IMG/VR virus record: IMGVR_UViG_2703718855_000002 | Length of the DNA: 39,413 bases | Direction: 5' to 3' (one strand) | Source: a virus | Taxonomy: Duplodnaviria; Heunggongvirae; Uroviricota; Caudoviricetes | In this document: one piece after another, positions 1 to 33,690 of the stretch | How the letters are laid out: the number at the start of each line of letters is the position of its first letter | Numbering within the stretch: position 1 is the first letter of the stretch | Notes under the pieces: model-generated | The model's database searches: none | Told to the model about the DNA's origin: nothing | What the model saw: the letters and a program-made list of their open reading frames with translations, nothing else | Made by a program: the position numbers and the translations under genes

Positions 1-1257
1 GTGCTTACCGATACAAAATTAAAAAACCTCAAGCCGCAGGACAAACTGTACAAGGTCTCCGATCGTGACGGGCTGTATGTAGCTGTGCTTACGTCAGGCA
101 CGGTCTCGTTTCGCTATGACTACCGTATCAACGGTCGCCGCGAAACACTGGTAATCGGGCAGTATGGGCGTGACGGTATCAGCCTGGCAGAAGCGCGAGA
201 AGAACTGATTGCTGCAAAGAAGCTGCTTAAAGCAGGCCAGTCACCGGCTGCGGCTAAACGTGACGGTATCAAAAAGATTCGTGGTGCCGAGACGTTTGCG
301 GTACATACCGACAGTTATATGAAACACGTCATCCTGGCTGACAGTACCCGCGCAATGAAGCAGGCGGTGATCGACCGTGACATACTTCCAGTTCTTGGCA
401 ACAAAATGATGACTGAAATTACCACATCGATGGTTCGTGATTTGTGTGACCGGATTGTCGAACGCGGTGGTCGGGCAACAGCAGTACAGGCAAGGGAGAT
501 CATCAGCAGCGTATACCGTCACGCCAATGACCGTGGTCATGGTTTGTTTAATCCTGCGGCTGACATTAAACCTTCGTCTATCGCCATATTTAAACCACGA
601 GAGCGAACACTGACACCAGAAGAAATTGGCCTGTTCTTCCGCACGCTGGATGCCATTGGTGCTATGGGCACTATGAAAATGGCTTTAAAGCTGGTGCTTA
701 TCACTATGGTTCGTAAAGGCGAGTTCACCAATGCAACGTGGGATGAAATAGATTTTAAAAAATGGACATGGACAATTCCTTCAGACCGCATGAAGGGAAG
801 CCGGGCGCACGTTATTTACCTGCCTAAACAGGCACAGGATATATTGGTCGGGTTACAGATGTGCGCTGGTGGAAGTGAATATCTGGCTCCTGGTCGTTAC
901 AATTTCCGGAAGCCATTATCTAATGCCGCGCTGAACTCTCTGATCGACAGAACGGTGAAAATAATAAATGAAGATGGTGAGCATATTCAGGATTTCACCG
1001 TACACGATATGCGCCGTACAGCCAGTACGTTGTTGCATGAGGCTGGTTATCCTTCAGACTGGATTGAAAAGGCTCTGGCACATGAGCAGAAAGGTGTGCG
1101 CGCCGTATATAACAAAGCGGAATACGCAAGACAGCGCGCCTACATGTTGCAGCAGTGGGCCGATATGATTGATTCCTGGATTGACGGGGAGCATACGGAT
1201 CTGATTCCGTTCTCCCCGTCGAAGTTTGAGAAGTGGATGGAAGACAGTAATAAATAA
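1..1257 (+). CDS. int: Tyrosine recombinase / phage integrase (P4-type), GTG start at window position 1
   Basis: 418-aa ORF; N-terminus MLTDTKLKNLKPQDKLYKVSDRDGLY and C-terminal HDMRRTASTLL...VYNKAEYARQRAYMLQQWADMI typical of P4-family integrases; located at prophage end. Confidence 0.85.
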   Translation: MLTDTKLKNLKPQDKLYKVSDRDGLYVAVLTSGTVSFRYDYRINGRRETLVIGQYGRDGISLAEAREELIAAKKLLKAGQSPAAAKRDGIKKIRGAETFAVHTDSYMKHVILADSTRAMKQAVIDRDILPVLGNKMMTEITTSMVRDLCDRIVERGGRATAVQAREIISSVYRHANDRGHGLFNPAADIKPSSIAIFKPRERTLTPEEIGLFFRTLDAIGAMGTMKMALKLVLITMVRKGEFTNATWDEIDFKKWTWTIPSDRMKGSRAHVIYLPKQAQDILVGLQMCAGGSEYLAPGRYNFRKPLSNAALNSLIDRTVKIINEDGEHIQDFTVHDMRRTASTLLHEAGYPSDWIEKALAHEQKGVRAVYNKAEYARQRAYMLQQWADMIDSWIDGEHTDLIPFSPSKFEKWMEDSNK

Positions 1258-1259
1258 TT

Positions 1260-1919
1260 CTATCCTTCCTGGACTTTGGTAAGCGTCAGATTTCCGCAGA
1301 ACACTGCGCCGGTGTCGATGTACATCTGGTTTGCATACACCAGTGGGTGATGTGCTGGCGTATGACCGAAGATGAACAAATCGGCACCGGTTATCTCCGA
1401 GACAATACCGTCCTGCGCGTCGCTAACCCGCTCACGATTCCATATCACCATTTCTTCTGGTACTGGCTTATCGAATGCGTATTCGTTGTGCGGGTAGTCT
1501 GCGTGACAGATGACGACCTTCTTATTGCCGGTAACCAGTTCGATAATCATCGGGAGGTTGGTAATCTTTGGCAGAAGGTATTTGAGTTGCACATCCTGCT
1601 CAGAATCAAGTTGGTGCCACCATCCACCGCCGTTTGACATCCAATGTCCGAAACTTCCGCCGTTGACCAGTGCATCCAGCATCATCTGCTCATGGTTGCC
1701 ACGAACAGCTCGGAACCACGGCATAGTAATCAAATCCAGGCATTCGACGTTTTCAGCGCCGCGGTCAACAAGGTCACCAACGGAAATAAGTAAATCGCGC
1801 GCCGGGTCGAATGAAACTTTGTCGAGTTCGTTCATCAGCAGCGTGTAGCACCCATGCAGATCGCCGACGACGAAGATATTGCACCAGTCAGCGCCATTGA
1901 TGCGTTGATATAGGTTCAT
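1260..1919 (-). CDS. Ser/Thr protein phosphatase (lambda PP-like metallophosphatase)
   Basis: Motifs GDLHG, GDLVDRG and GNHE in the 220-aa product from ATG at 1919; ATGA overlap with upstream gene. Confidence 0.85.
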
Positions 1920-3265: not shown

Positions 3266-4147
3266 TTACATAGATGTTTCGTTTAATTCTTCCCGACGAA
3301 CGCTGTAAACGTCGGTGGCTTTTGCCAGCAGTTCGTCATCATCTGAAAGTTTTTGTGCAATGTATTTGTAAGCCTTATCCAGTTCGGAGACAGTGATGTA
3401 ATTCATCGCTGCGCTGGTAAAGGCCATCAGCATTTCTTCTGGATCACGGCTATCCGCTTTACGCGTTTGCTCATCAGGCTTTTTCGCTGGTTTAGCGTTG
3501 ATCAGACTGTTCATTCCCGCAGCAGTGGTCGTTTGCGGAGTAATGTCTCGCTCAACGCGCGGTGCCGTTTCCTGTAATTCGTCAGGGGTGTAAACACCGA
3601 GAAGTACATCAGGAGCGTGCAGGCGAGCCCATCGTTTCGTGCAAAGATAGGCAAGCTGCTGGCGCGGATCCTGTTCCCACAATGGAGAGTTACGCACTCC
3701 GGCTTGCGCCATACTGATGGTAAGCTCACGGGGTTCTGCTTCTCCTTTAAGAACTGCTGACACAGTTACCGTCAGATTCGGTGATTTATCTGTTTTGCCG
3801 TTAACATTCGACCAGTCACCGCTCCAGCGATAATTCAGGCGTGTCGCTAGCAGGCTGGAAGAGGATACGACCGCGTTTACCAACTGTGCTTCGTAGCCTA
3901 ACGTTCCGTTTACCACATGCGTTTTCTGCGCCACGGCGAAAGGATTCATTCCCCACTGTGCCGCCTGCATGGTCACCGCCAGACAATCGGCAGGTTTGCC
4001 TTCAAGATGTTTCGGTACAGTCGCTTTGCTTTGTGACATCAACTCCGCGAAACGCACCAGTTGATTCATGCCCTCCGGGCTGAAGATTGCCGCAGCAGTA
4101 CCTACAGTTGCGCCTGGTTGTGATGTGATTGCGATATCATTGCTCAT
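3266..4147 (-). CDS. Single-strand annealing protein (RecT/Bet-like recombinase)
   Basis: 293 aa; start ATG overlaps stop of upstream exonuclease (ATGA), the classic exo-SSAP pair; family assignment from memory, not searched. Confidence 0.55.
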   Translation of the reverse strand: MSNDIAITSQPGATVGTAAAIFSPEGMNQLVRFAELMSQSKATVPKHLEGKPADCLAVTMQAAQWGMNPFAVAQKTHVVNGTLGYEAQLVNAVVSSSSLLATRLNYRWSGDWSNVNGKTDKSPNLTVTVSAVLKGEAEPRELTISMAQAGVRNSPLWEQDPRQQLAYLCTKRWARLHAPDVLLGVYTPDELQETAPRVERDITPQTTTAAGMNSLINAKPAKKPDEQTRKADSRDPEEMLMAFTSAAMNYITVSELDKAYKYIAQKLSDDDELLAKATDVYSVRREELNETSM

Positions 4148-5569: not shown

Positions 5570-6154
5570 TTATTGTTTGTTTTTTTCGTTCTGGTTGATG
5601 ACAAATTCAATGTAACTTTCGATCTTTGCTTTCTCGGTTTCAGGTAACAATGCGTAGCGCGAGCGGTCATAGTTGATAGTTGCAGGGTCGTGCGGGTGAA
5701 TCAGTAGTTCATATCCGTGACGCCCGAATGCAGATGCAACATTCTCCAGGGTGGAAATGGAAACGCTGACCTCATTGTTTAACAGGCGGCTGATTGTCAC
5801 CTGGGCGACGCCGGATGCGCGGTGAAGTTTTCCCTGTGTTGAAAGGTCGCGGCTTTCGCTCATCCAGCGTTCCAGGTTGTGAGCCGCCAGCTGACCAATG
5901 TCGCTTGGGCCGACAGGCTGAAAACCTTCCTGAGAAAGCGAGCGATCGATATCAAGCCAGTTACGGGGTTTATTGGCGGCAGCTTCAATTTTTCGCGCAA
6001 CCTGGTCGCCGATAACCTTCTTGCCAAGAGCCCAGCGGTTTACCAGATTTGCCTGAGTTCCAAGTTTTTCAGCCATCCGCGTCTGAACACCATTGAATTC
6101 ACGGTCGATCAAGTCGTTGAGATTTTGCCTGCGGACGTCCTGGATACTTTTCAT
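5570..6154 (-). CDS. Prophage repressor (CI-like, XRE-type HTH, no S24 peptidase domain)
   Basis: 194 aa; N-terminal HTH (TRMAEKLGTQANLVNRWALGKK); divergent from Cro-like gene with palindromic operators on both sides; C-terminal half has a second HTH-like segment (ASGVAQVTISRLLN). Confidence 0.7.
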   Translation of the reverse strand: MKSIQDVRRQNLNDLIDREFNGVQTRMAEKLGTQANLVNRWALGKKVIGDQVARKIEAAANKPRNWLDIDRSLSQEGFQPVGPSDIGQLAAHNLERWMSESRDLSTQGKLHRASGVAQVTISRLLNNEVSVSISTLENVASAFGRHGYELLIHPHDPATINYDRSRYALLPETEKAKIESYIEFVINQNEKNKQ

Positions 6155-6905: not shown

Positions 6906-7721
6906 ATGAGCAGACATGCAACAGATTGGGCCTGGGAGACAGATCCAGGCAGCTCATCATTAAAGCTCATACTGCTCTCGATGGCTGACAGAGCCGATGA
7001 ATATAACCTCTGCTACCCCAGCATAGAACGCCTAGTTAAAGACACTTGCCTGAATAAAAAAACCGTGCAGGCCGGACTTATATCGCTCATGAAAATGGGG
7101 CTTATTTCAGATACCGGAGAGAGAAAGGGAGCGACGAAAAGAGTGCGGGTTTTCTCTCTTAATATAACCAAAAACGGGAACATTAAAGGCAACCGGGAAG
7201 GGGGTAATGAACCCGAAAACGGTAATGTTACCGAAAACGGGAATATACCCAAAAACGGGATGTTGAATGATCCCAAAAACGGGATGTTGAATGATCCCAA
7301 AAACGGGATCCAGAACCAGTCATATAACCAGTCATTTAACCAAGAGAGGGAGAGCAGGACAAAAACCGGGGATTCTGTGCCTCATGACCCCGGCGCAAAC
7401 AACGCTGTGATGAATAACTTTGTTCCTCCAGGTGGGCCAGGGCAATTAGGCAAATTTGTCATGCATGAACAATGGCAGCCATCAGATGACTTTCTTCGGA
7501 AAAGCTCATTGCAGGGGATCTACCTGGACAGTCTGCCAACGGCACAGGAACTTGCAGAGTTCAGAATTTACTGGATGGCTGAGGGTAAGGCATACCATCA
7601 GGCACAGTGGGAGCAGAAGCTGGCAAGGCGGCTGCAGATTAGCAGACAGAAGCAATCAACATTACCTGATAACAACGTTCCGCACTGGAACAGCCCTGAA
7701 GCATGGGAGGATTTCTTGTGA
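6906..7721 (+). CDS. Replication initiation protein (lambda O-like; N-terminal HTH, C-terminal DnaT-like domain)
   Basis: 271 aa; internal iteron array encodes an Asn/Gly-rich linker; immediately upstream of P-like gene with overlapping stop/start. Confidence 0.75.
   Translation: MSRHATDWAWETDPGSSSLKLILLSMADRADEYNLCYPSIERLVKDTCLNKKTVQAGLISLMKMGLISDTGERKGATKRVRVFSLNITKNGNIKGNREGGNEPENGNVTENGNIPKNGMLNDPKNGMLNDPKNGIQNQSYNQSFNQERESRTKTGDSVPHDPGANNAVMNNFVPPGGPGQLGKFVMHEQWQPSDDFLRKSSLQGIYLDSLPTAQELAEFRIYWMAEGKAYHQAQWEQKLARRLQISRQKQSTLPDNNVPHWNSPEAWEDFL
7167..7313. repeat. Iteron array (candidate replication origin) inside O-like gene
   Basis: Six direct repeats with core CC(A/G)AAAACGG(G/T)A; two perfect 24-bp tandem copies CCCAAAAACGGGATGTTGAATGAT at 7248..7271 and 7272..7295; followed by CCAGTCAT(A/T)TAACC x2. 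Confidence 0.65.
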
Positions 7722-8503
7722 ACAACGTTTTTACCGCGATACAAAACCGTGACGGAGAAGCCCTTTCTCGCATGTCAGGTTATGAGCATCAGTACACCAA
7801 CAATGACAACGTGGTGAACATGTCAGCAGAGAGGCTTGTTGATGCCCTTTTCAAACAGCTGAAACAACTGTTTCCGGCGGCAGTGGTAACCAACCTGAAG
7901 ACGCCAGAGCAGGAAGTTTCTGCAAAACAGCAGTGGATTGCTGCGTTTGCCGAAGGGGGGATCCGAACCCGTGAACAGGTTTCTGCTGGTATGCGCCACG
8001 CCCGCGCCAGTGAATCTCCGTTCTGGCCGTCGCCAGGGCAATTCATCAAGTGGTGCAAAGACAGCAAGATGGTTCTTGGCGTCACCATTGACGATGTGAT
8101 GGCAGAGTTTCACCGGTACAGCAAGGAAAAAAGTTTATATCCTGGCGGTCCCGAAAGATTCCCGTGGCGACATCCGGTTATGTACTGGGTCGTATGTGAT
8201 ACCCGCCGTGCAATGTATCAGCGCCAGCTTAGCGAGATTGAGGTTGAGAAACACGCGCGCAGGCTGCTCGATGATTGGGCGAAAAAGGTGGCTTCCGGAC
8301 AGCAGATACCCGATCCGGTGATCAGCATACAGGCAAAGCCAGAACCCATGAGTACACCTCCGGACACAGGGAGAGACGTTTACCATCCACCAGGGCGAAG
8401 TTTCGGGTGCATGCCTAACGCCGCCACCCTGGGGGGAATAACACCGGCCCAGTGGCTGATGGAGGAATACCGGCGAGGGAAAGCGGCAGGACTCATCAGG
8501 TAG
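7703..8503 (+). CDS. Replication protein P-like (helicase loader)
   Basis: Collinear with lambda P as recalled (QWIAAFAEGGIRTREQVSAGMRHARASESPFWPSPGQFIKWCKDS vs lambda RQWVLAFRENGITTMEQVNAGMRVARRQNRPFLPSPGQFVAWCRE); start ATG 7703 or GTG 7718 overlapping O stop. Confidence 0.85.
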   Translation: MGGFLVNNVFTAIQNRDGEALSRMSGYEHQYTNNDNVVNMSAERLVDALFKQLKQLFPAAVVTNLKTPEQEVSAKQQWIAAFAEGGIRTREQVSAGMRHARASESPFWPSPGQFIKWCKDSKMVLGVTIDDVMAEFHRYSKEKSLYPGGPERFPWRHPVMYWVVCDTRRAMYQRQLSEIEVEKHARRLLDDWAKKVASGQQIPDPVISIQAKPEPMSTPPDTGRDVYHPPGRSFGCMPNAATLGGITPAQWLMEEYRRGKAAGLIR

Positions 8504-14516: not shown

Positions 14517-14592
14517 TGGCGTGGCATGCAGGATTCGAACCTGCGACCAACCGCTTAGAAGGCGGTTGCTCTGTCCAACTGAGCTAATGCCA
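14517..14592 (-). tRNA. tRNA-Arg (anticodon UCU)
   Basis: Reverse complement folds as cloverleaf: 7-bp acceptor stem GTGGCAT/ATGCCAC, anticodon loop CUUCUAA, T-arm GGTTCGAATCC, discriminator G, encoded CCA. Confidence 0.85.
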
Positions 14593-14915
14593 CAACGCTG
14601 AGAGCACTTAGCCTGTTAAGGCGCCACATTTTGTCGCGGCTCCATAAATGCTCTCATCGTTGTACCCTCGTCTCTTCCGAGGCGTCACACCGAATCGCCG
14701 GGATGGTGAATCCCCGTGCGCGGAATAAAACCGCTCGACTTGCACATTCCGGCTACCTGGTTCGTTTGCCCGAGCAAGGGAGGGTGCCCCTTAAACGTAT
14801 CCAGACCGCTATCGGCGCATGTGCCATACGCCGTACTGCTCAAAATAAAAGCTCACTCCACCTGTTCAATTTAACGACAAGCCAGTCAGGTTAATAACCG
14901 GAATGAACTCTTTGG

Positions 14916-19403: not shown

Positions 19404-19748
19404 GTGATATCGATGTCAGGTGAGAAACCAAGATACCGCGTTCTGCGCCTCTCTCATATCCATAACACTCTGTGGCCGGAGGGGGCGGAAATCGAATACG
19501 AAGGTGAGCCTGGTAGCGCACTGGAACCTGTTAACGATGCAGCCAGACAGGCAAAAGCAAAGGTAGCAGGAAAGGTGTCAATGGCAGCAACCAGTACCAA
19601 AATCATCAACGATGTGTCAGATGATGGTGAGCTGGATAAGCTCCGTGAAGAGTACGAATTGCTCTTTAACGAGAAGCCACACCATAACGCCAAAGCCGAA
19701 ACGCTCCGCGAGAAGATCGCAGATAAGCGTAAAGAACTGGGCGTGTAA
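19404..19748 (+). CDS. Hypothetical protein
   Basis: 114-aa ORF, start adjacent to previous stop. Confidence 0.4.
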   Translation: MISMSGEKPRYRVLRLSHIHNTLWPEGAEIEYEGEPGSALEPVNDAARQAKAKVAGKVSMAATSTKIINDVSDDGELDKLREEYELLFNEKPHHNAKAETLREKIADKRKELGV

Positions 19749-19765
19749 GCCTCGCGGATCAGACA

Positions 19766-19786
19766 AGGGGCTTCGGCCCCTTTATT
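19766..19786 (+). terminator. Rho-independent terminator within structural operon
   Basis: AGGGGC-TTCG-GCCCCT hairpin followed by TTTATT. Confidence 0.5.
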
Positions 19787-19798
19787 GCAGGAGTGTAT

Positions 19799-20122
19799 AT
19801 GGAACTCGTAAACCTCAAAACCGGCACTGACAGCTACCAGGATGAGAGCGGAGAAACCAGAACTCGCGATGAATACCCGTGGGGGCTGTGCATCACTCTT
19901 AATAACGACACATTGAATAAGCTGAAGGCGCAACCTAAGGGCGTCGGAACGGAAGTGATGATAACTGCAAAGGCTGTTATTCGAGGCCTGTCTGCCAGAG
20001 AAACTAACGATGGCGTTAATCGCAGCGCCGATCTGCAGATCACTGATATGGCGATCGCTCCTGTTTCCGGGGATGTAGAAAAATCAGCGGCTGAAACTCT
20101 GTACGGTAACGGAGGTGAGTGA
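19799..20122 (+). CDS. Hypothetical protein
   Basis: ATG 19799 after SD GCAGGAG; stop overlaps next start. Confidence 0.4.
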   Translation: MELVNLKTGTDSYQDESGETRTRDEYPWGLCITLNNDTLNKLKAQPKGVGTEVMITAKAVIRGLSARETNDGVNRSADLQITDMAIAPVSGDVEKSAAETLYGNGGE

Positions 20123-20727
20123 TGGCCTCTGTAGTAGAGATCTGTAATCGTGCGCTGTCCAATATTGGCAACAGCCGCAGCATTAACAGCCTGACGGAAG
20201 CCAGCAAGGAAGCGGGGGAATGTTCGCTGCACTTTGAGGCCTGTCGTGATGCTGTGCTTTCTGATTTTGACTGGAACTTTGCTACCAAACGCGTGGCGCT
20301 TGCAGATACGAGCAATCCACCGCCTGACTGGGAATATGCGTACCAGTACCCGTCCGATTGTCTGCGCATTACTGAAATTATGCTTCCTGGTGTACGCAAT
20401 CCAACAGCAGCAATGCGCGTTCAGTACGAAGTTGGTGCAGACACCAACGGAACAGGAAAATTGATCTACACAGACCAGCCTCAGGCATGGCTCAAGTATG
20501 TCTCTCGCGTTACAGATGTAAACATGTTTGATGCCATTTTTATGGAGGCGCTGGCCTGGCGTCTTGCGGCAGCCATTAACATGGCGCTGACTGGGAATGC
20601 GGATCTCGGTACATTTGCTCTCAATATGTACAATCGCGTGATTCTTAGTGCTGGCTCGCATAGCCAGAATGAATCACAGGAACCACAACCACCGGTTGAC
20701 GAGTTTACCATTGCGAGGTTGTCCTGA
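20122..20727 (+). CDS. Tail tubular protein A (T7 gp11-like)
   Basis: About 200 aa; N-terminal pattern similar to T7 gp11 as recalled; SD GGAGG; precedes gp12-like gene. Confidence 0.6.
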   Translation: MASVVEICNRALSNIGNSRSINSLTEASKEAGECSLHFEACRDAVLSDFDWNFATKRVALADTSNPPPDWEYAYQYPSDCLRITEIMLPGVRNPTAAMRVQYEVGADTNGTGKLIYTDQPQAWLKYVSRVTDVNMFDAIFMEALAWRLAAAINMALTGNADLGTFALNMYNRVILSAGSHSQNESQEPQPPVDEFTIARLS

Positions 20728-31432: not shown

Positions 31433-32065
31433 TTAATGCAGTTTATCTTTGCTTATAACCAGTAGTCTGTGGGTATGCACATCTTTATCACTGCCCCAAC
31501 AGAAATCAGCCCACTGGCTATAGAAATCATCCCATGATGTCATGAAGCTAAGAGGTCTATCTTCTTCAGAGCCATCTGAAACGTATACATTATATCCCGG
31601 GGTGTTTATAGCCCAAGAAATCATTCTTTCCCAGAATCTTCTCCCATCGATTGTTTGTTGCTCATCAGATACAACAATCGCATATTGCTCTAGGAAGAAC
31701 TGAAAAAAAATCTGAGGCAAACCATGAACAGCACGGTCATGAATAACATTAGGCGTACGCCATACCATGATCTGCGTACATGTTCTTTTGGCTTCGACGA
31801 TATCTTCCCGAAAGATTAACTTAACCGCATACACCGTTTCTGGAGTATCGCTGGTAGTAATCATTCTGTAATGATCGCCATTACAAGATTTTACAAGGCG
31901 ATAACCATAAGGTGTTGTGAATCCCGGAAGAACGAAATCAACCACACCTTTCGCTAAGTAGCTTTCGGTGTGACTAGTGTTCTTCTCAGACATGTTCAGT
32001 TTTCTATCGAAATCTGCTTCTGGGATAATGTATGGCATCGCTTTTCTTGTTGTATTTGTTCTCAT
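31433..32065 (-). CDS. Hypothetical protein, no recognisable family (moron; candidate accessory/exclusion function)
   Basis: 210 aa, Trp-rich and acidic; strong SD GGGAGGA; own operator-bearing promoter region and own terminator. Confidence 0.55.
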   Translation of the reverse strand: MRTNTTRKAMPYIIPEADFDRKLNMSEKNTSHTESYLAKGVVDFVLPGFTTPYGYRLVKSCNGDHYRMITTSDTPETVYAVKLIFREDIVEAKRTCTQIMVWRTPNVIHDRAVHGLPQIFFQFFLEQYAIVVSDEQQTIDGRRFWERMISWAINTPGYNVYVSDGSEEDRPLSFMTSWDDFYSQWADFCWGSDKDVHTHRLLVISKDKLH

Positions 32066-32124: not shown

Positions 32125-32139
32125 TTACCCTTGAGGTAA
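32125..32139. promoter_or_regulatory. Operator-like palindrome TTACCCTTGAGGTAA
   Basis: Perfect site 60-74 bp upstream of ATG of 210-aa gene. Confidence 0.5.
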
Positions 32140-32211
32140 TAGTACGCTATTCACCCCCAGTCTGCAATCTGTACAGAATTATTTAAAGGCACATCCCTGT
32201 GCCGCCGCCCG

Positions 32212-32922
32212 TCAGAAGAACCCAGCCTTGTCGTTGATGTACTCCGCGTGCGTCTGGATATCACGCAGGCATTTGCTCACACCGACGATGTAGCAGAACA
32301 TGGTGGTCAGTTCCGCCGCCGCGCCCGATACGTCGTGCCCGTCTTCCTGTAACTGGTTTAGCAGATTCATCAGCAGTGAGCTCTCCGTCAGGCCGAGAAC
32401 ACCAGACGGCGAATGAATCAGGCTACGGTAGCCTGGCTTCAGTGGGGCACTGTAGGTTTTGTTCTCTATCTTCATTGCCTGCATCACTGCTGATGCTGTG
32501 GCGTTGGCTACCTGGTCGGCAACCATCTTTATGCGTTCTTCCTGCGGGAGCGAGTTTTTAATGTAACTTCCGGTGCGGCGGATCTGAGGAAGAACCTCAC
32601 CTGTAACCCATTTACGAAAGCGGTAGGGGATAGTGCCTGGTGTCACCGCATCGCGGCAGCGGAGGATCAGTGTGTAGAGGCCTGACTCGGAGATGATGTT
32701 GATCTCTTTTACTCGGCTATCAAAAATTGCACGATGTTCATGCCCTATGTTGAACATAGACCTTTCATCATCATCCAGTTTTTCAAGTGATTGGGTGACG
32801 TTTTGGATACGCAGCGCACTACAAACGTCTTGGGCTACAAACCATGGTTGGCCATCGATAATGATGGAACGGATAGGGTTAACAGATTCAAATTTGAAGA
32901 TGGCAGTTTGAGCATTAGCCAT
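32212..32922 (-). CDS. Antirepressor (N-terminal Bro-N domain)
   Basis: FKFESVNPIRSIIIDGQPWFVAQDVCSALRI matches Bro-N; C-terminal 60 aa paralogous to product of 33238..33495; ATG 32922 with SD GGAGA. Confidence 0.7.
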   Translation of the reverse strand: MANAQTAIFKFESVNPIRSIIIDGQPWFVAQDVCSALRIQNVTQSLEKLDDDERSMFNIGHEHRAIFDSRVKEINIISESGLYTLILRCRDAVTPGTIPYRFRKWVTGEVLPQIRRTGSYIKNSLPQEERIKMVADQVANATASAVMQAMKIENKTYSAPLKPGYRSLIHSPSGVLGLTESSLLMNLLNQLQEDGHDVSGAAAELTTMFCYIVGVSKCLRDIQTHAEYINDKAGFF

Positions 32923-33077
32923 GGTGGTTATCTCCACTTAGTGATTTTAATCACCACCGCAACGCCAATTACTGGTGGTGAACTGGACAAGGTTGGCGTA
33001 CCGGCCTAAGTGGTACCGGCGTCCTTTCGGACCCCTGCCCAGCCCACCATAATTCGGATATGGCTGTGTTTAACGCA

Positions 33078-33101
33078 TAAAAAAACCACGTCTGGCGTGG
33101 T
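33078..33101 (-). terminator. Rho-independent terminator downstream of small antirepressor-like gene
   Basis: Minus-strand hairpin ACCACG-CCAGA-CGTGGT followed by TTTTTTT. Confidence 0.5.
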
Positions 33102-33191
33102 ATGCGCCACTTAGTAACTCGGGACGCCAATCCCGGCACTGGATTTTGCCAGTGCCCGATTACTATGGCACAAGAGGAGTGCGATGTAAAT

Positions 33192-33206
33192 TTACCGCAA
33201 AGGTAA
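33192..33206. promoter_or_regulatory. Operator-like palindrome TTACCGCAAAGGTAA
   Basis: Perfect site in the 300-bp region between the two antirepressor-like genes. Confidence 0.5.
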
Positions 33207-33237
33207 ATATAAGCACTCATCTTGGTAATTTCAAATC

Positions 33238-33495
33238 TTATCTGGTTTGTTTTCGTAATTGTTCGGCACAATAGTCGAGATGTGTTTGCAGATCCCGCAT
33301 AGACATCTGTGAGCTGGTGACGTAGTTAATCAGTGCAGTCAGTTCGGCAAGTGGGCCATCGACATTAAATCCATCCTTATCGAGATCCCGGAGTAATTTC
33401 ATCAAGTGCGATCCCTCCACCAGTGATCTGACGCCTCCCGGCGTGTGAATCCTTTCGGTAAATCCGTCTTCCAGTGGATAGTGATACTGCTGCAT
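33238..33495 (-). CDS. Small antirepressor-like protein (stand-alone paralog of the Ant C-terminal domain), LexA-controlled
   Basis: 85 aa from ATG 33495 (SD GGAGA); GGVRSLVEGSHLMKLLRDLDKDGFNVDGPLAELTALINYV aligns with Ant C-terminus SGVLGLTESSLLMNLLNQLQEDGHDVSGAAAELTTMFCYI; LexA box 22 bp upstream. Confidence 0.55.
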   Translation of the reverse strand: MQQYHYPLEDGFTERIHTPGGVRSLVEGSHLMKLLRDLDKDGFNVDGPLAELTALINYVTSSQMSMRDLQTHLDYCAEQLRKQTR

Positions 33496-33516
33496 CTTAT
33501 CTTCTCCATGCAATAA

Positions 33517-33532
33517 CTGTATATTTATACAG
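33517..33532. promoter_or_regulatory. LexA (SOS) box CTGTATATTTATACAG
   Basis: Perfect CTGT-N8-ACAG with AT-rich spacer, immediately upstream of small antirepressor-like gene. Confidence 0.75.
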
Positions 33533-33571
33533 TATCAAATAATTTGTTTGCTATCCAGCACGTTTTGTAAA

Positions 33572-33586
33572 TTACCCGAAAGGTAA
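33572..33586. promoter_or_regulatory. Operator-like palindrome TTACCCGAAAGGTAA
   Basis: Perfect site in divergent region between small antirepressor-like gene and tailspike. Confidence 0.5.
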
Positions 33587-33612
33587 TATCTATTCGTATT
33601 TACAGTCTTTCT

Positions 33613-33639
33613 ATCCATATGTGGTTTTTCAGGTAATAG
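33613..33639 (+). promoter_or_regulatory. Candidate late promoter: ATCCATATGTGGTT - 7 nt - TAATAG (tailspike)
   Basis: Same motif/spacing as at 14969 and 36253. Confidence 0.45.
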
Positions 33640-33690
33640 AATAACCAGATATGCGGCGCAACGGGTGCTGCGACTATCTGGAGATTTAAC

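What the first reader, a model, noticed from the sequence alone, without database searches (positions are those of the whole stretch)
32212..33532. SOS-linked antirepressor circuit: a LexA box controls a small stand-alone paralog of the Bro-N antirepressor's C-terminal domain
The repressor (5570..6154) has no S24 autocleavage domain, so RecA cannot inactivate it directly. A perfect LexA box CTGTATATTTATACAG (33517..33532) sits 22 bp upstream of an 85-aa gene whose product aligns with the last 60 residues of the Bro-N antirepressor at 32212..32922. This matches the Gifsy-type induction logic (repressor inactivated by a LexA-controlled antirepressor), here with an unusual split: a full Ant without a LexA box plus a LexA-controlled C-domain-only paralog.
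Basis: partly seen in the sequence, partly recalled or inferred. Interest (0 to 1): 0.65.

Follow-up and report, generated by a model that had tools for sequence, protein, structure and literature searches.

The report
Known SOS antirepressor plus RNA-gated paralog
This prophage carries the already characterised LexA-controlled antirepressor switch of epsilon15/SPC32H-type phages, and next to it a second antirepressor gene, gated by a P1/N15-style antisense RNA, that reuses the same repressor-binding domain, so it is mostly ordinary with one modest new twist.

Summary
Every factual statement in the finding holds. There is a near-consensus LexA box just upstream of an 85-aa gene. That protein is homologous to the C-terminus of the neighbouring Bro-N protein. 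The repressor lacks an S24 domain.

The circuit itself is not new. The window is a phiV10/epsilon15-like (Uetakevirus) E. coli prophage. The 85-aa protein is the ortholog (about 87% identity, E 1e-46) of Salmonella phage SPC32H Ant, solved in complex with its repressor (PDB 5D50). The 194-aa repressor is the homolog of SPC32H Rep. The LexA box is conserved in all seven relatives aligned.

The small protein is the complete, canonical antirepressor. The Bro-N protein is a fusion of a Bro-N domain with an Ant-like domain.

Its 315-bp leader encodes an IsrK-like RNA and a C4 antisense RNA, both above Rfam thresholds. The C4 loops pair with the gene's ribosome-binding site and co-vary with their targets across 11 phages. 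This is the P1/P7 immI and N15 anti-immunity design.

Sharing one effector domain between the two antirepressors was not found in the literature I could search. Interest is low to moderate.

The parts
5570..6154 (-). rep: 194-aa prophage repressor with two HTH-like segments and no S24 autocleavage domain
   Evidence: Pfam shows HTH_3 at residues 106-147 and a YdaS-like HTH at 21-61, with no S24 hit. It matches PDB 5D50_A, SPC32H Rep, at E 4e-42 over residues 1-190, and 5D4Z_A (Rep C-terminal domain) at E 4e-20. It is 100% identical to the phiV10 and ZX5 repressors.
33571..33587 (.). Operator-like palindrome ATTACC-N5-GGTAAT just upstream of the ant promoter, between ant and the divergent tailspike gene
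   Evidence: Present in the window and in all seven relatives aligned. The homologous 17-mer in the epsilon15 record is annotated 'protein_bind: repressor; lysogeny'.
33529..33557 (-). Putative ant promoter: -35 TGGATA (33552..33557), 17-nt spacer, extended -10 TGaTACTGT (33529..33537)
   Evidence: Read directly from the sequence. CTGGA.A and T.TG.TA.TGT are invariant in the seven-phage alignment A1. The generic promoter scan did not call it, so this is an inference.
33515..33534 (.). LexA box (core CTGT-N8-ACAG at 33517..33532). It starts inside the -10 hexamer and covers the predicted transcription start
   Evidence: 18 of 20 matches to consensus, unique in the window, 0 of 200 shuffles reach 18. 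In all 7 relatives: the full CTGT-N8-ACAG core in 5, and with the first C replaced by A in the 2 Klebsiella phages. LexA-like boxes also precede ant in Erwinia, Citrobacter and Samsonia prophages.
33238..33495 (-). ant: 85-aa antirepressor, ortholog of SPC32H Ant
   Evidence: PDB 5D50_E 'Anti-repressor protein', E 1.4e-46 over residues 2-84. tblastn gives 86.7% identity to SPC32H ant and 98.8% to phiV10 p24. Same position next to the tailspike gene as in SPC32H.
33162..33234 (-). Promoter region of the second module. It holds two sigma70-like sites: TTGAAA-17-TATATT (33234..33206) and TTTACA-17-TGcCATAGT (33190..33162). They flank or overlap an operator-like palindrome TTACC-N5-GGTAA (33192..33206)
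   Evidence: Promoter scan. The palindrome and the second promoter are invariant in 11 phages. The second promoter predicts a start near 33155, which is the 5' end of the Rfam isrK match.
33079..33155 (-). IsrK-like leader RNA carrying decoy/target sites a1 (TTGGCG, 33125..33130) and b1 (CTAAGTGG, 33107..33114). It ends in an intrinsic terminator (stem 33085..33101 plus a T-run)
   Evidence: Rfam RF01394 isrK scores 67.2 bits against a gathering score of 50. RF03163 c4-a1b1 scores 44.3 bits against 46.7 at 33116..33168. Terminator scan. Coordinates checked.
32971..33054 (-). C4-type antisense RNA with recognition elements b' (CCACUUAG, 33006..33013) and a' (CGCCAA, 32993..32998)
   Evidence: Rfam RF01695 C4 scores 66 bits against a gathering score of 45, covering the full model 1-87. 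Loops identified.
32932..32968 (-). C4 target sites in the Bro-N mRNA leader: a2 (TTGGCG, 32963..32968) and b2 (CTAAGTGG, 32934..32941). b2 overlaps the Shine-Dalgarno GGAG (32932..32935)
   Evidence: The cognate b'-b2 duplex is -12.6 kcal/mol and the a'-a2 duplex is -9.9 kcal/mol. There are four b' types and three a' types in 11 phages, each with matching a1, b1, a2 and b2.
32212..32922 (-). Bro-N::Ant-domain fusion gene (236 aa). Bro-N domain at aa 17-112 (32587..32874). Ant-like domain at aa 155-231 (32230..32460)
   Evidence: Pfam Bro-N. The C-terminal part matches PDB 5D50_E at E 1.7e-13 and phrog_450 at E 6.5e-36. The N-terminal part is 52% identical to N15 gp30. The ZX5 ortholog, with a 98.9% identical C-domain, lowered lysogeny about 1000-fold when overexpressed (PMC9782041).

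Best explanation
The region holds two antirepressor modules that most likely aim at the same repressor but answer to different signals.

Module 1, SOS induction:
- In the lysogen, Rep (5570..6154) cannot be cleaved via RecA. It holds the prophage silent, probably through the ATTACC-N5-GGTAAT palindromes found at about 14 intergenic sites.
- LexA sits on the box that overlaps the -10 hexamer and start site of the ant promoter.
- DNA damage leads to LexA self-cleavage and synthesis of the 85-aa Ant.
- As shown for the SPC32H ortholog, tetrameric Ant binds the C-terminal domains of Rep dimers and takes the Rep tetramer off the DNA.

Module 2, anti-immunity of the P1 immI / N15 type:
- A promoter overlapped by an operator-like palindrome transcribes an IsrK-like leader (sites a1 and b1, then a terminator).
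- On read-through, it also transcribes a C4 antisense RNA and the Bro-N::Ant-domain gene.
- C4 pairs through its a' and b' elements with a2 and b2 on the mRNA. b2 covers the Shine-Dalgarno sequence, so the fusion protein stays untranslated in a lysogen.
- The protein is made when cognate C4 is lacking or is titrated by a1/b1-bearing leader RNA, for example on superinfection by a phage of another C4 type.
- Its Ant-like C-domain then inactivates Rep.

What is shown and what is inferred:
- Shown here: the homologies, the RNA family matches, the complementarity and its co-variation, and the conservation of the LexA box.
- Shown in relatives: Ant-Rep binding and LexA control in SPC32H, and the anti-lysogeny effect of the ZX5 Bro-N protein.
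- Inferred: promoter positions, Rep binding to the palindromes, and binding of Rep by the fusion protein.
For: Module 1:
- Ant matches 5D50_E at E 1e-46, and Rep matches 5D50_A at E 4e-42.
- The SPC32H record names these genes ant and rep at syntenic positions.
- The LexA box is 18 of 20, unique in the window and conserved across the genus.
- Literature: PMC7380047 states that SOS and LexA cleavage lead to Ant synthesis, citing Kim & Ryu 2013. PMC9638917 states that tetrameric Ant binds two Rep dimers.

Module 2:
- Rfam isrK scores 67 bits and C4 scores 66 bits, both above their gathering scores.
- Both RNAs are found in all 10 relatives that carry the Bro-N::Ant or AntA::Ant gene. They are absent from SPC32H, epsilon15 and BUCT711, which lack that gene.
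- Across 11 phages there are seven a'/b' combinations. Every one has compensatory a1, b1, a2 and b2. Cognate duplexes are -8.6 to -12.7 kcal/mol; non-cognate duplexes average about -5.
- b2 overlaps the Shine-Dalgarno sequence.
- The characterised N15 anti-immunity locus has the same isrK plus C4 leader and a 52% identical Bro-N domain.

The fusion's C-domain as a Rep-binding module:
- It is 43% identical to Ant, with 18 positions invariant across both paralog groups.
- It stays 92-100% identical wherever Rep is 98.5-100% identical, although the N-terminal domain is swapped: only about 80% identical in ZX5 and TL-2011b, and an AntA-type domain in phiv142-3.
- ZX5 overexpression reduced lysogeny.
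Against: - Nothing was tested biochemically for this phage.
- Rep is only about 42% identical to SPC32H Rep while Ant is 87% identical. Conservation of the binding interface is therefore assumed, not shown.
- I could not read the two SPC32H primary papers. Details of LexA binding there rest on secondary citations and my own recollection.
- The generic promoter scan did not call the ant promoter.
- For module 2 the direction of regulation is ambiguous. In P1, C4 represses. In Gifsy-1, short IsrK activates translation of the read-through mRNA (PMC4825925).
- The module has no icd or orf45 equivalent; the longest leader ORF is 14 codons.
- In phiV10 itself the Bro-N gene is frameshifted, so the second module is dispensable for a viable phage.
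- The co-divergence of the C-domain with Rep could simply reflect shared phylogeny.
Confidence: 0.75

Rival explanations
1. The Bro-N protein is the principal, full-length antirepressor. The LexA-controlled 85-aa protein is a truncated accessory paralog that only modulates or triggers it.
For: The two proteins share a domain. The Bro-N protein is the one annotated as 'anti-repressor' in most records, and it has an anti-lysogeny effect when overexpressed in ZX5.
Against: The small protein is a full-length ortholog of SPC32H Ant, which is 86 aa and was crystallised bound to Rep. SPC32H and epsilon15 have only this gene and no Bro-N gene. phiV10, a viable temperate phage, has a frameshifted Bro-N gene but an intact small ant.
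Confidence: 0.08
2. The Bro-N::Ant-domain protein does not act on the resident Rep. Its Ant-like domain serves only for oligomerisation, or it targets repressors of other prophages (crosstalk). The Bro-N domain would carry the real activity, such as DNA binding or host takeover.
For: The C-domain is only 43% identical to Ant. Antirepressors acting on foreign repressors, and under non-LexA control, are documented: FsoA of Fels-1 (PMC3121763). IsrK/C4/Bro-N cassettes occur with unrelated C-domains in N15, Limnobaculum and Samsonia. This shows the Bro-N part is a generic unit.
Against: The C-domain stays 92-100% identical in phages with identical Rep while the N-domain is exchanged. 18 positions are invariant across both paralog groups. 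ZX5 ORF4 overexpression reduced lysogeny of its own phage, whose Rep is 100% identical to the one here.
Confidence: 0.15
3. The Bro-N fusion is a negative modulator. It forms mixed oligomers with Ant through the shared domain and damps or delays SOS induction.
For: Ant acts as a tetramer (PMC9638917), and the two proteins share the domain.
Against: There is no supporting evidence. The ZX5 overexpression phenotype is pro-lytic, not pro-lysogenic. The cassette architecture matches anti-immunity loci.
Confidence: 0.04
4. The LexA box is a chance palindrome in an AT-rich intergenic region and ant is not SOS-regulated.
For: The loose pattern CTGT-N8-ACAG occurs three times in the window against 0.5 expected, and 1 of 100 shuffles reached three.
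Against: 18 of 20 matches to the full consensus; 0 of 200 shuffles reach this. The box holds the same position in all seven aligned relatives despite divergent flanks, with the first C replaced by A in the two Klebsiella phages, and LexA-like boxes precede ant in more distant prophages. It overlaps the conserved -10 element.
Confidence: 0.02

Closest known systems
Salmonella phage SPC32H Rep-Ant-LexA antirepression switch (Kim & Ryu 2013 J Virol 87:11775; Kim et al. 2016 PNAS 113:E2480; PDB 5D50, 5D4Z)
   Same: Same genus (Uetakevirus). Ant is an ortholog (about 87% identity, 85 vs 86 aa). Rep is a homolog with the same two-domain layout and no S24 domain. ant occupies the same position, divergent from the tailspike gene. 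The LexA box is conserved over the ant promoter.
   Different: Rep is only about 42% identical. SPC32H has no IsrK/C4 leader and no Bro-N::Ant-domain gene downstream of ant.
Phage P1/P7 immI operon (C1-controlled promoter, a1/b1, c4 antisense RNA, a2/b2, icd, ant); from established knowledge and Rfam RF01695/RF03163
   Same: Same order of elements. The C4 RNA scores above the Rfam threshold. Two recognition elements pair with targets both upstream and downstream of c4. The downstream target covers a ribosome-binding site. Recognition elements differ between phages that share the primary repressor, which is what makes P1 and P7 heteroimmune.
   Different: There is no icd-like ORF, so the antirepressor gene itself carries the masked ribosome-binding site. 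The protein is a Bro-N fusion with an SPC32H-Ant-like effector domain. The host phage is a small podovirus rather than a plasmid prophage.
Phage N15: anti-immunity locus (small processed RNA plus antirepressor gene 30) and a separate LexA-controlled AntC (Ravin et al. 1999, Mardanov & Ravin 2007, from my knowledge; AntC cited in PMC3121763)
   Same: One phage carries two antirepressors, one SOS/LexA-controlled and one controlled by a C4-type RNA. The N15 locus gives isrK and C4 Rfam hits upstream of gene 30, and the gp30 Bro-N domain is 52% identical to the one here.
   Different: In N15 the C-terminal half of gp30 is unrelated to the domain here. It has no detectable paralog in the part of N15 searched (25567..46375), a stretch that contains one LexA-like box. 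Here the two antirepressors share one effector domain. N15 also has genes 32 and 31 between the RNA and the antirepressor gene.
Salmonella Gifsy-1 isrK-orf45-anrP locus (Hershko-Shalev et al. 2016, PMC4825925) and Gifsy LexA-controlled antirepressors GfoA/GftA (Lemire et al. 2011, PMC3121763)
   Same: An IsrK RNA with its own terminator, read-through into a downstream antirepressor gene, and a processed RNA (STnc1160) complementary to IsrK. Non-cleavable repressors are inactivated by small LexA-controlled proteins.
   Different: There is no orf45 coupling ORF here. Protein homology to AnrP, GfoA or GftA was not tested. In Gifsy-1 the two kinds of antirepressor gene are at separate loci.
Phage P22 immI (ant next to tailspike gene 9, controlled by Mnt, Arc and sar antisense RNA); established knowledge
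   Same: A secondary immunity region with an antirepressor gene sits beside the tailspike gene of a podovirus, under antisense-RNA control.
   Different: The regulators differ (no Mnt or Arc), as does the RNA family. P22 C2 is RecA-cleavable, so P22 Ant is not needed for SOS induction.

Membership tests
SPC32H-type Rep/Ant/LexA antirepression system | Small (about 86 aa) Ant protein homologous to SPC32H Ant | tested here: met
   5D50_E at E 1.4e-46 over residues 2-84; 86.7% identity by tblastn.
SPC32H-type Rep/Ant/LexA antirepression system | Repressor homologous to SPC32H Rep, including the C-terminal domain that Ant binds, and lacking an S24 autocleavage domain | tested here: met
   5D50_A at E 4e-42 over residues 1-190. 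5D4Z_A (C-terminal domain) at E 4e-20 over residues 89-190. Only HTH Pfam hits.
SPC32H-type Rep/Ant/LexA antirepression system | LexA operator overlapping the ant promoter | tested here: met
   18 of 20 matches to consensus, starting inside the inferred -10 hexamer. In all 7 aligned genus members including SPC32H; the two Klebsiella phages have A for the first C of the core. LexA binding itself was not tested.
SPC32H-type Rep/Ant/LexA antirepression system | Physical Ant-Rep binding and SOS-dependent induction | not testable with these tools
   Needs pull-down or EMSA and mitomycin C induction of ant deletion lysogens.
P1/P7 immI-type C4 antisense control | C4 RNA with the family's structure | tested here: met
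   RF01695 scores 66 bits against a gathering score of 45, full-length model match.
P1/P7 immI-type C4 antisense control | Upstream a1/b1 and downstream a2/b2 sites complementary to the two C4 recognition elements, with the downstream site masking a ribosome-binding site | tested here: met
   Complementarity and compensatory variation in 11 phages. b2 overlaps GGAG at 32932..32935. RF03163 c4-a1b1 scores 44.3 bits, just under its gathering score of 46.7, but RF01394 isrK, which covers the same leader, scores 67.2 against 50.
P1/P7 immI-type C4 antisense control | icd-like ORF between c4 and ant whose translation is coupled to ant expression | tested here: not met
   The longest ORF in the leader is 14 codons. 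The Bro-N gene follows the targets directly.
P1/P7 immI-type C4 antisense control | Operon promoter under control of the primary repressor | tested here: inconclusive
   The operator-like palindrome at 33192..33206 overlaps or abuts two promoter-like sites and is invariant in 11 phages. The motif is annotated as a repressor site in the epsilon15 record. Binding was not tested.
Gifsy-1 isrK-orf45-anrP locus | IsrK RNA with a Rho-independent terminator, upstream of an antirepressor gene | tested here: met
   RF01394 scores 67.2 bits against a gathering score of 50. Terminator at 33101..33085.
Gifsy-1 isrK-orf45-anrP locus | orf45 upstream ORF translationally coupled to anrP | tested here: not met
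   No comparable ORF is present.
Gifsy-1 isrK-orf45-anrP locus | Antirepressor homologous to AnrP | not tested
Bro-N domain proteins (PF02498) | Bro-N domain above the Pfam gathering score | tested here: met
   69.7 bits against 25.6, residues 17-112.
Lambda-type RecA-cleavable repressors (S24) | C-terminal S24 peptidase domain | tested here: not met
   No S24 hit at E <= 0.1. The C-terminal domain instead matches the SPC32H Rep tetramerisation and Ant-binding domain.

The most novel reading that the evidence does not exclude
phiV10-group phages have re-aimed a mobile IsrK/C4-gated Bro-N anti-immunity cassette, of the kind characterised in N15 and P1, at their own repressor. They did so by using a duplicate of the phage's SOS antirepressor Ant as its C-terminal effector domain.

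The C4 recognition loops and their four targets diversify among phages whose Rep is identical. This would give P1/P7-style heteroimmunity in a prophage family matched in about 10% of complete E. coli genomes.

In addition, no terminator separates the LexA-controlled ant from the a1/b1 leader. SOS transcripts could therefore titrate C4 and switch on the second antirepressor as a feed-forward amplifier.
Probability: 0.35. Interest if true: 0.5.

Novelty: new member of a known kind. Interest (0 to 1): 0.3.

Why it matters
The SOS circuit needs no new explanation. It is the SPC32H switch in an E. coli relative, so the finding mainly corrects annotation:
- The ant gene is labelled 'hypothetical protein' in the RefSeq E. 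coli rows shown. It is 'unknown function' in PHROGs and has no Pfam or NCBIfam model, although the module region (32150..33700) matches 535 of 5426 complete E. coli genomes.
- The C4 region is annotated in at least one record, ZX5, as a protein-coding 'ash family' gene.

The part worth a specialist's attention is that two antirepressors share one effector domain under two unrelated controls, LexA and a C4/IsrK riboregulator. The C4 specificity loops also vary among phages with identical repressors. If functional, this would predict which phiV10-like phages, including phages used for O157 typing and detection, can superinfect or cross-induce each other's lysogens.

Tried and rejected
- I tried to read the two primary SPC32H papers (PMC3807360, PMC4983836) and the epsilon15 genome paper (PMC2698709). 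None is held, so the SPC32H mechanism is cited from secondary sources and PDB entries.
- Pfam, NCBIfam and PADLOC gave nothing for the small Ant or for the 210-aa downstream ORF. The weak DUF724 hit for Ant (17 bits against a cut-off of 38) was dismissed as noise.
- I looked for a second LexA site in front of the Bro-N gene. There is none with at least 14 of 20 matches anywhere else in the window.
- I considered a formal pair count on the MAFFT alignment of the leaders. The variable loops are out of register there, so I extracted the elements by anchors and computed duplex energies instead.
- I tested whether N15 shows the same paralogy between its RNA-gated antirepressor and another gene. No paralog of the gp30 C-terminal half was found in N15 25567..46375.
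- I considered structure prediction of the fusion protein. I skipped it because the direct sequence match to a solved chain (E 1.7e-13) already settles the fold, and a monomer model cannot test Rep binding.
- The search of the large protein collection with the C-terminal 107 aa returned only 30 clusters and missed the exact full-length protein. I therefore did not use it for prevalence and relied on BLAST against phages and E. coli genomes.
Full report
**What the window is.** The 2.3 kb around the finding matches Escherichia phages of the phiV10/epsilon15 group (genus Uetakevirus) at 91-98% DNA identity. The gene order parallels phiV10: integrase, immunity region, replication, terminase, virion genes, tailspike, lysis. 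The window is therefore an integrated phiV10-like prophage.

**Checking the observation.**
- CTGTATATTTATACAG is at 33517..33532.
- The 20-mer with flanks (33515..33534) matches the LexA consensus at 18 of 20 positions. It is the only site in the window with at least 14 matches, and no shuffle out of 200 reached 18.
- On the minus strand an ATG at 33495 opens an 85-aa ORF ending at 33238, with GGAG 8 nt upstream.
- Its product aligns with residues 155-228 of the 236-aa Bro-N protein (32212..32922, minus strand) at 43% identity, E 2e-16.
- The Bro-N domain is confirmed.
- The repressor at 5570..6154 (minus strand, 194 aa) has only HTH-type Pfam matches and no S24 domain.

**What the small gene is.**
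- It is not an orphan fragment. It matches chain E of PDB 5D50, 'Anti-repressor protein', at E 1.4e-46 across its whole length. By tblastn it is 86.7% identical to the gene named ant in Salmonella phage SPC32H.
- The repressor matches chain A of the same entry, SPC32H Rep, at E 4e-42. It also matches the separately crystallised Rep C-terminal domain at E 4e-20.
- In SPC32H, ant sits alone between the tailspike gene and a small membrane-protein gene. That is the same place as here.
- SPC32H is the phage in which this switch was worked out (Kim & Ryu 2013; Kim et al. 2016). I could not open those papers.
- A review states that in such Salmonella prophages SOS induction and LexA self-cleavage lead to synthesis of an Ant that inhibits the repressor by protein-protein contact, citing that work (PMC7380047).
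- Another paper summarises that tetrameric Ant binds two Rep dimers and breaks the DNA-binding Rep tetramer (PMC9638917).

**Promoter and LexA box.** I aligned the region upstream of ant from the window, phiV10, SPC32H, epsilon15, Tyrion and two Klebsiella phages.
- The LexA box is present in all seven: the full CTGT-N8-ACAG core in five, and with the first C replaced by A in the two Klebsiella phages.
- A TGGATA element, a 17-nt spacer and TGnTACTGT are also conserved. I read these as a -35 hexamer and an extended -10.
- The LexA box begins inside the -10 hexamer and covers the expected start site (coordinates verified).
- The generic promoter scan did not call this site, so the promoter assignment is my inference.
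- LexA-like boxes also precede ant homologs in Erwinia, Citrobacter and Samsonia prophages.

**The Bro-N protein and its control.**
- The C-terminal 80 residues of the Bro-N protein match 5D50_E at E 1.7e-13. They also match the same PHROG as Ant, phrog_450, at E 6.5e-36. The paralogy is real.
- Across four small Ants and four Bro-N C-domains, 18 positions are invariant.
- The N-terminal Bro-N part is 52% identical to gp30 of phage N15, annotated there as the antirepressor. The C-terminal halves of the two proteins are unrelated.
The 315-bp spacer between ant and the Bro-N gene gives two Rfam matches above gathering scores. One is isrK at 33079..33155 (67.2 bits against 50). The other is C4 antisense RNA at 32971..33054 (66 bits against 45). 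There is also a near-threshold match to the a1/b1 target family.
- The isrK match ends in the only minus-strand terminator of the region, 33101..33085.
- Upstream lie two sigma70-like sites.
- The second of these, TTTACA-17-TGcCATAGT, is invariant in 11 phages and predicts a start at the 5' end of the isrK match.

**Base-pairing and co-variation.**
- The C4 hairpin loop carries CCACUUAG (b') and the adjacent single strand carries CGCCAA (a').
- Perfect complements occur twice. One set lies in the IsrK-like leader (a1 at 33125..33130, b1 at 33107..33114). The other lies just before the Bro-N start codon (a2 at 32963..32968, b2 at 32934..32941). b2 overlaps the Shine-Dalgarno GGAG.
- I compared 11 phages: the window, phiV10, TL-2011b, ZX5, EC.W1-9, phiv142-3, Phi05_1387B, Tyrion and three Klebsiella phages. 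They carry four b' types and three a' types in seven combinations.
- In every phage all four targets carry the matching change.
- Cognate duplexes are -8.6 to -12.7 kcal/mol. Non-cognate duplexes average about -5 kcal/mol.
- This is strong comparative evidence that the pairings are functional.
- Several of these phages have 100% identical Rep yet different C4 types. That is the situation that makes P1 and P7 heteroimmune (established knowledge).

**Association of the parts.**
- isrK and C4 are present in every relative that has the fusion gene. They are absent from SPC32H, epsilon15 and BUCT711, which lack it.
- The same leader precedes gene 30 in N15.
- It also precedes Bro-N genes with other C-domains in Limnobaculum and Samsonia.
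- The cassette 'IsrK-C4-Bro-N-X' is thus a mobile unit whose C-terminal domain X varies.
- In the phiV10 group X is the Ant domain, and it tracks Rep. Where Rep is 98.5-100% identical, the C-domain is 92-100% identical. This holds even though the N-domain is only about 80% identical (ZX5, TL-2011b) or is replaced by an AntA-type domain (phiv142-3, and clusters P0121, P0123, P0138).
- In Tyrion the identities are 78% for Rep and 77% for the C-domain. In Klebsiella phages they are 45% and 54%.
- The only experiment on such a protein is in phage ZX5, whose Rep is identical to the one here and whose C-domain is 98.9% identical. Overexpressing the Bro-N 'anti-repressor' lowered the prophage count from 1e9 to 1e6 (PMC9782041). 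That paper does not mention LexA; its ZX5 record labels the small ant gene 'hypothetical protein' and the C4 region an 'ash family protein' CDS.

**Operator-like palindromes.**
- TTACC-N5-GGTAA occurs 14 times in the window, allowing one mismatch, against 0.7 expected.
- By my reading of the ORF list, most copies lie between ORFs: on both sides of rep, before the replication, terminase and lysis blocks, upstream of ant, over the promoter of the second module, and before the 210-aa ORF.
- The epsilon15 record annotates the same 17-mers as 'repressor; lysogeny' binding sites.
- I take them as Rep operators. This is inference.

**How it most likely works.**
- Module 1 is the SPC32H switch. LexA holds ant off. 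DNA damage releases it. Ant strips the non-cleavable Rep from its operators.
- Module 2 is an immI-type anti-immunity device. In a lysogen, Rep and C4 RNA keep the fusion protein off.
- A superinfecting relative with a different C4 type, or an excess of a1/b1-bearing leader RNA, would allow its translation. Its Ant-like domain would then inactivate Rep.
- The sign of IsrK action is uncertain. It could be a decoy for C4, or a direct activator as in Gifsy-1 (PMC4825925).
- No terminator lies between ant and the leader. SOS transcripts may therefore feed into module 2. However, TL-2011b and EC.W1-9 have insertions there, so such coupling is not obligatory.

**Comparison with known systems and novelty.**
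- The SOS circuit is already known in the same genus.
- A phage with one LexA-controlled and one RNA-gated antirepressor is known from N15 (PMC3121763, and my own knowledge of the N15 literature).
- What I did not find described is that the two antirepressors share one effector domain. In N15 the corresponding C-terminal half has no paralog in the region I searched.
- I therefore rate the finding as a new member of a known kind, of low to moderate interest. A somewhat more interesting reading is not excluded: cassette re-targeting by domain capture, diversifying C4 specificity, and possible SOS feed-forward.
- The region queried (32150..33700) matches 535 of 5426 complete E. coli genomes, 234 of them over at least 80% of its length, and under the matches shown only 'hypothetical protein' labels cover the ant position. 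The practical value is mainly better annotation.

Noticed in passing
window 5436, 5498, 6210, 6258, 6595, 8541, 8603, 11755, 11773, 14916, 32125, 33192, 33572, 36217 (15-mers starting at these positions): The palindrome TTACC-N5-GGTAA (usually ATTACC-N5-GGTAAT) occurs 14 times, allowing one mismatch, against 0.7 expected. By my reading of the ORF list, most copies lie between ORFs, ahead of gene blocks. The identical motif is annotated 'repressor; lysogeny' in the epsilon15 record. This suggests that Rep directly controls many dispersed promoters, as C1 does in P1.
   Followed up: partly
window 31433..32065 (-): A 210-aa ORF lies downstream of the Bro-N gene and is preceded by an operator-like palindrome (32125..32139). 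It matches phrog_1349 (unknown function, E 3e-113) and has no Pfam, NCBIfam or PADLOC hit. This slot is variable among relatives: TL-2011b has a YafO-family toxin there and phiV10 has nothing.
   Followed up: partly
L001/L008 (phiV10) record 19551..20230: In phiV10 the Bro-N::Ant-domain gene is split by a frameshift into p23 (194 aa) and p22 (29 aa). The reference phage of the group therefore probably lacks a functional second antirepressor, while its isrK and C4 elements are intact.
   Followed up: partly
L013 (ZX5) 1050..1163; L001 (phiV10) 3297..3364: The C4 RNA region is annotated as a protein-coding 'ash family protein' in ZX5. In phiV10 it is a misc_feature 'similar to hypothetical protein SF0880'. 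These are probable mis-annotations of a non-coding RNA.
   Followed up: no
Alignment A4; L007 (Klebsiella phage ST11-OXA245phi3.2) 2495..2755: The small Ant of Klebsiella phages carries DGHDVSGAAAEL, identical to the motif in all Bro-N C-domains. E. coli and Salmonella small Ants have DGFNVDGPLAEL. This suggests exchange or gene conversion between the two paralogs.
   Followed up: no
window 33238..33495 vs 5570..6154, compared with SPC32H (L002): Ant is far more conserved than its presumed partner. Ant is about 87% identical between this phage and SPC32H, while Rep is only about 42% identical. Either the interface is a small conserved patch, or Ant is constrained by something else such as tetramerisation or broad cross-reactivity.
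   Followed up: no
window 14517..14593 (-): A tRNA-Arg (anticodon TCT) gene lies on the minus strand, between the terminase genes and the downstream virion-gene block.
   Followed up: no
L012 (phiv142-3) 1211..1867; protein clusters P0121, P0123, P0138: Some relatives carry an AntA/AntB-type N-terminal domain (PF08346) instead of Bro-N, fused to the same Ant-like C-domain and behind the same isrK/C4 leader. The N-terminal domain is interchangeable.
   Followed up: partly
L003 (TL-2011b) 7277..8221: TL-2011b and HEMP4 show a third place matching the Ant domain. In TL-2011b a 314-aa gene annotated 'anti-repressor Ant' lies nearby on the opposite strand, but I did not check that this gene is that third match. 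Some relatives may carry three Ant-domain proteins.
   Followed up: no
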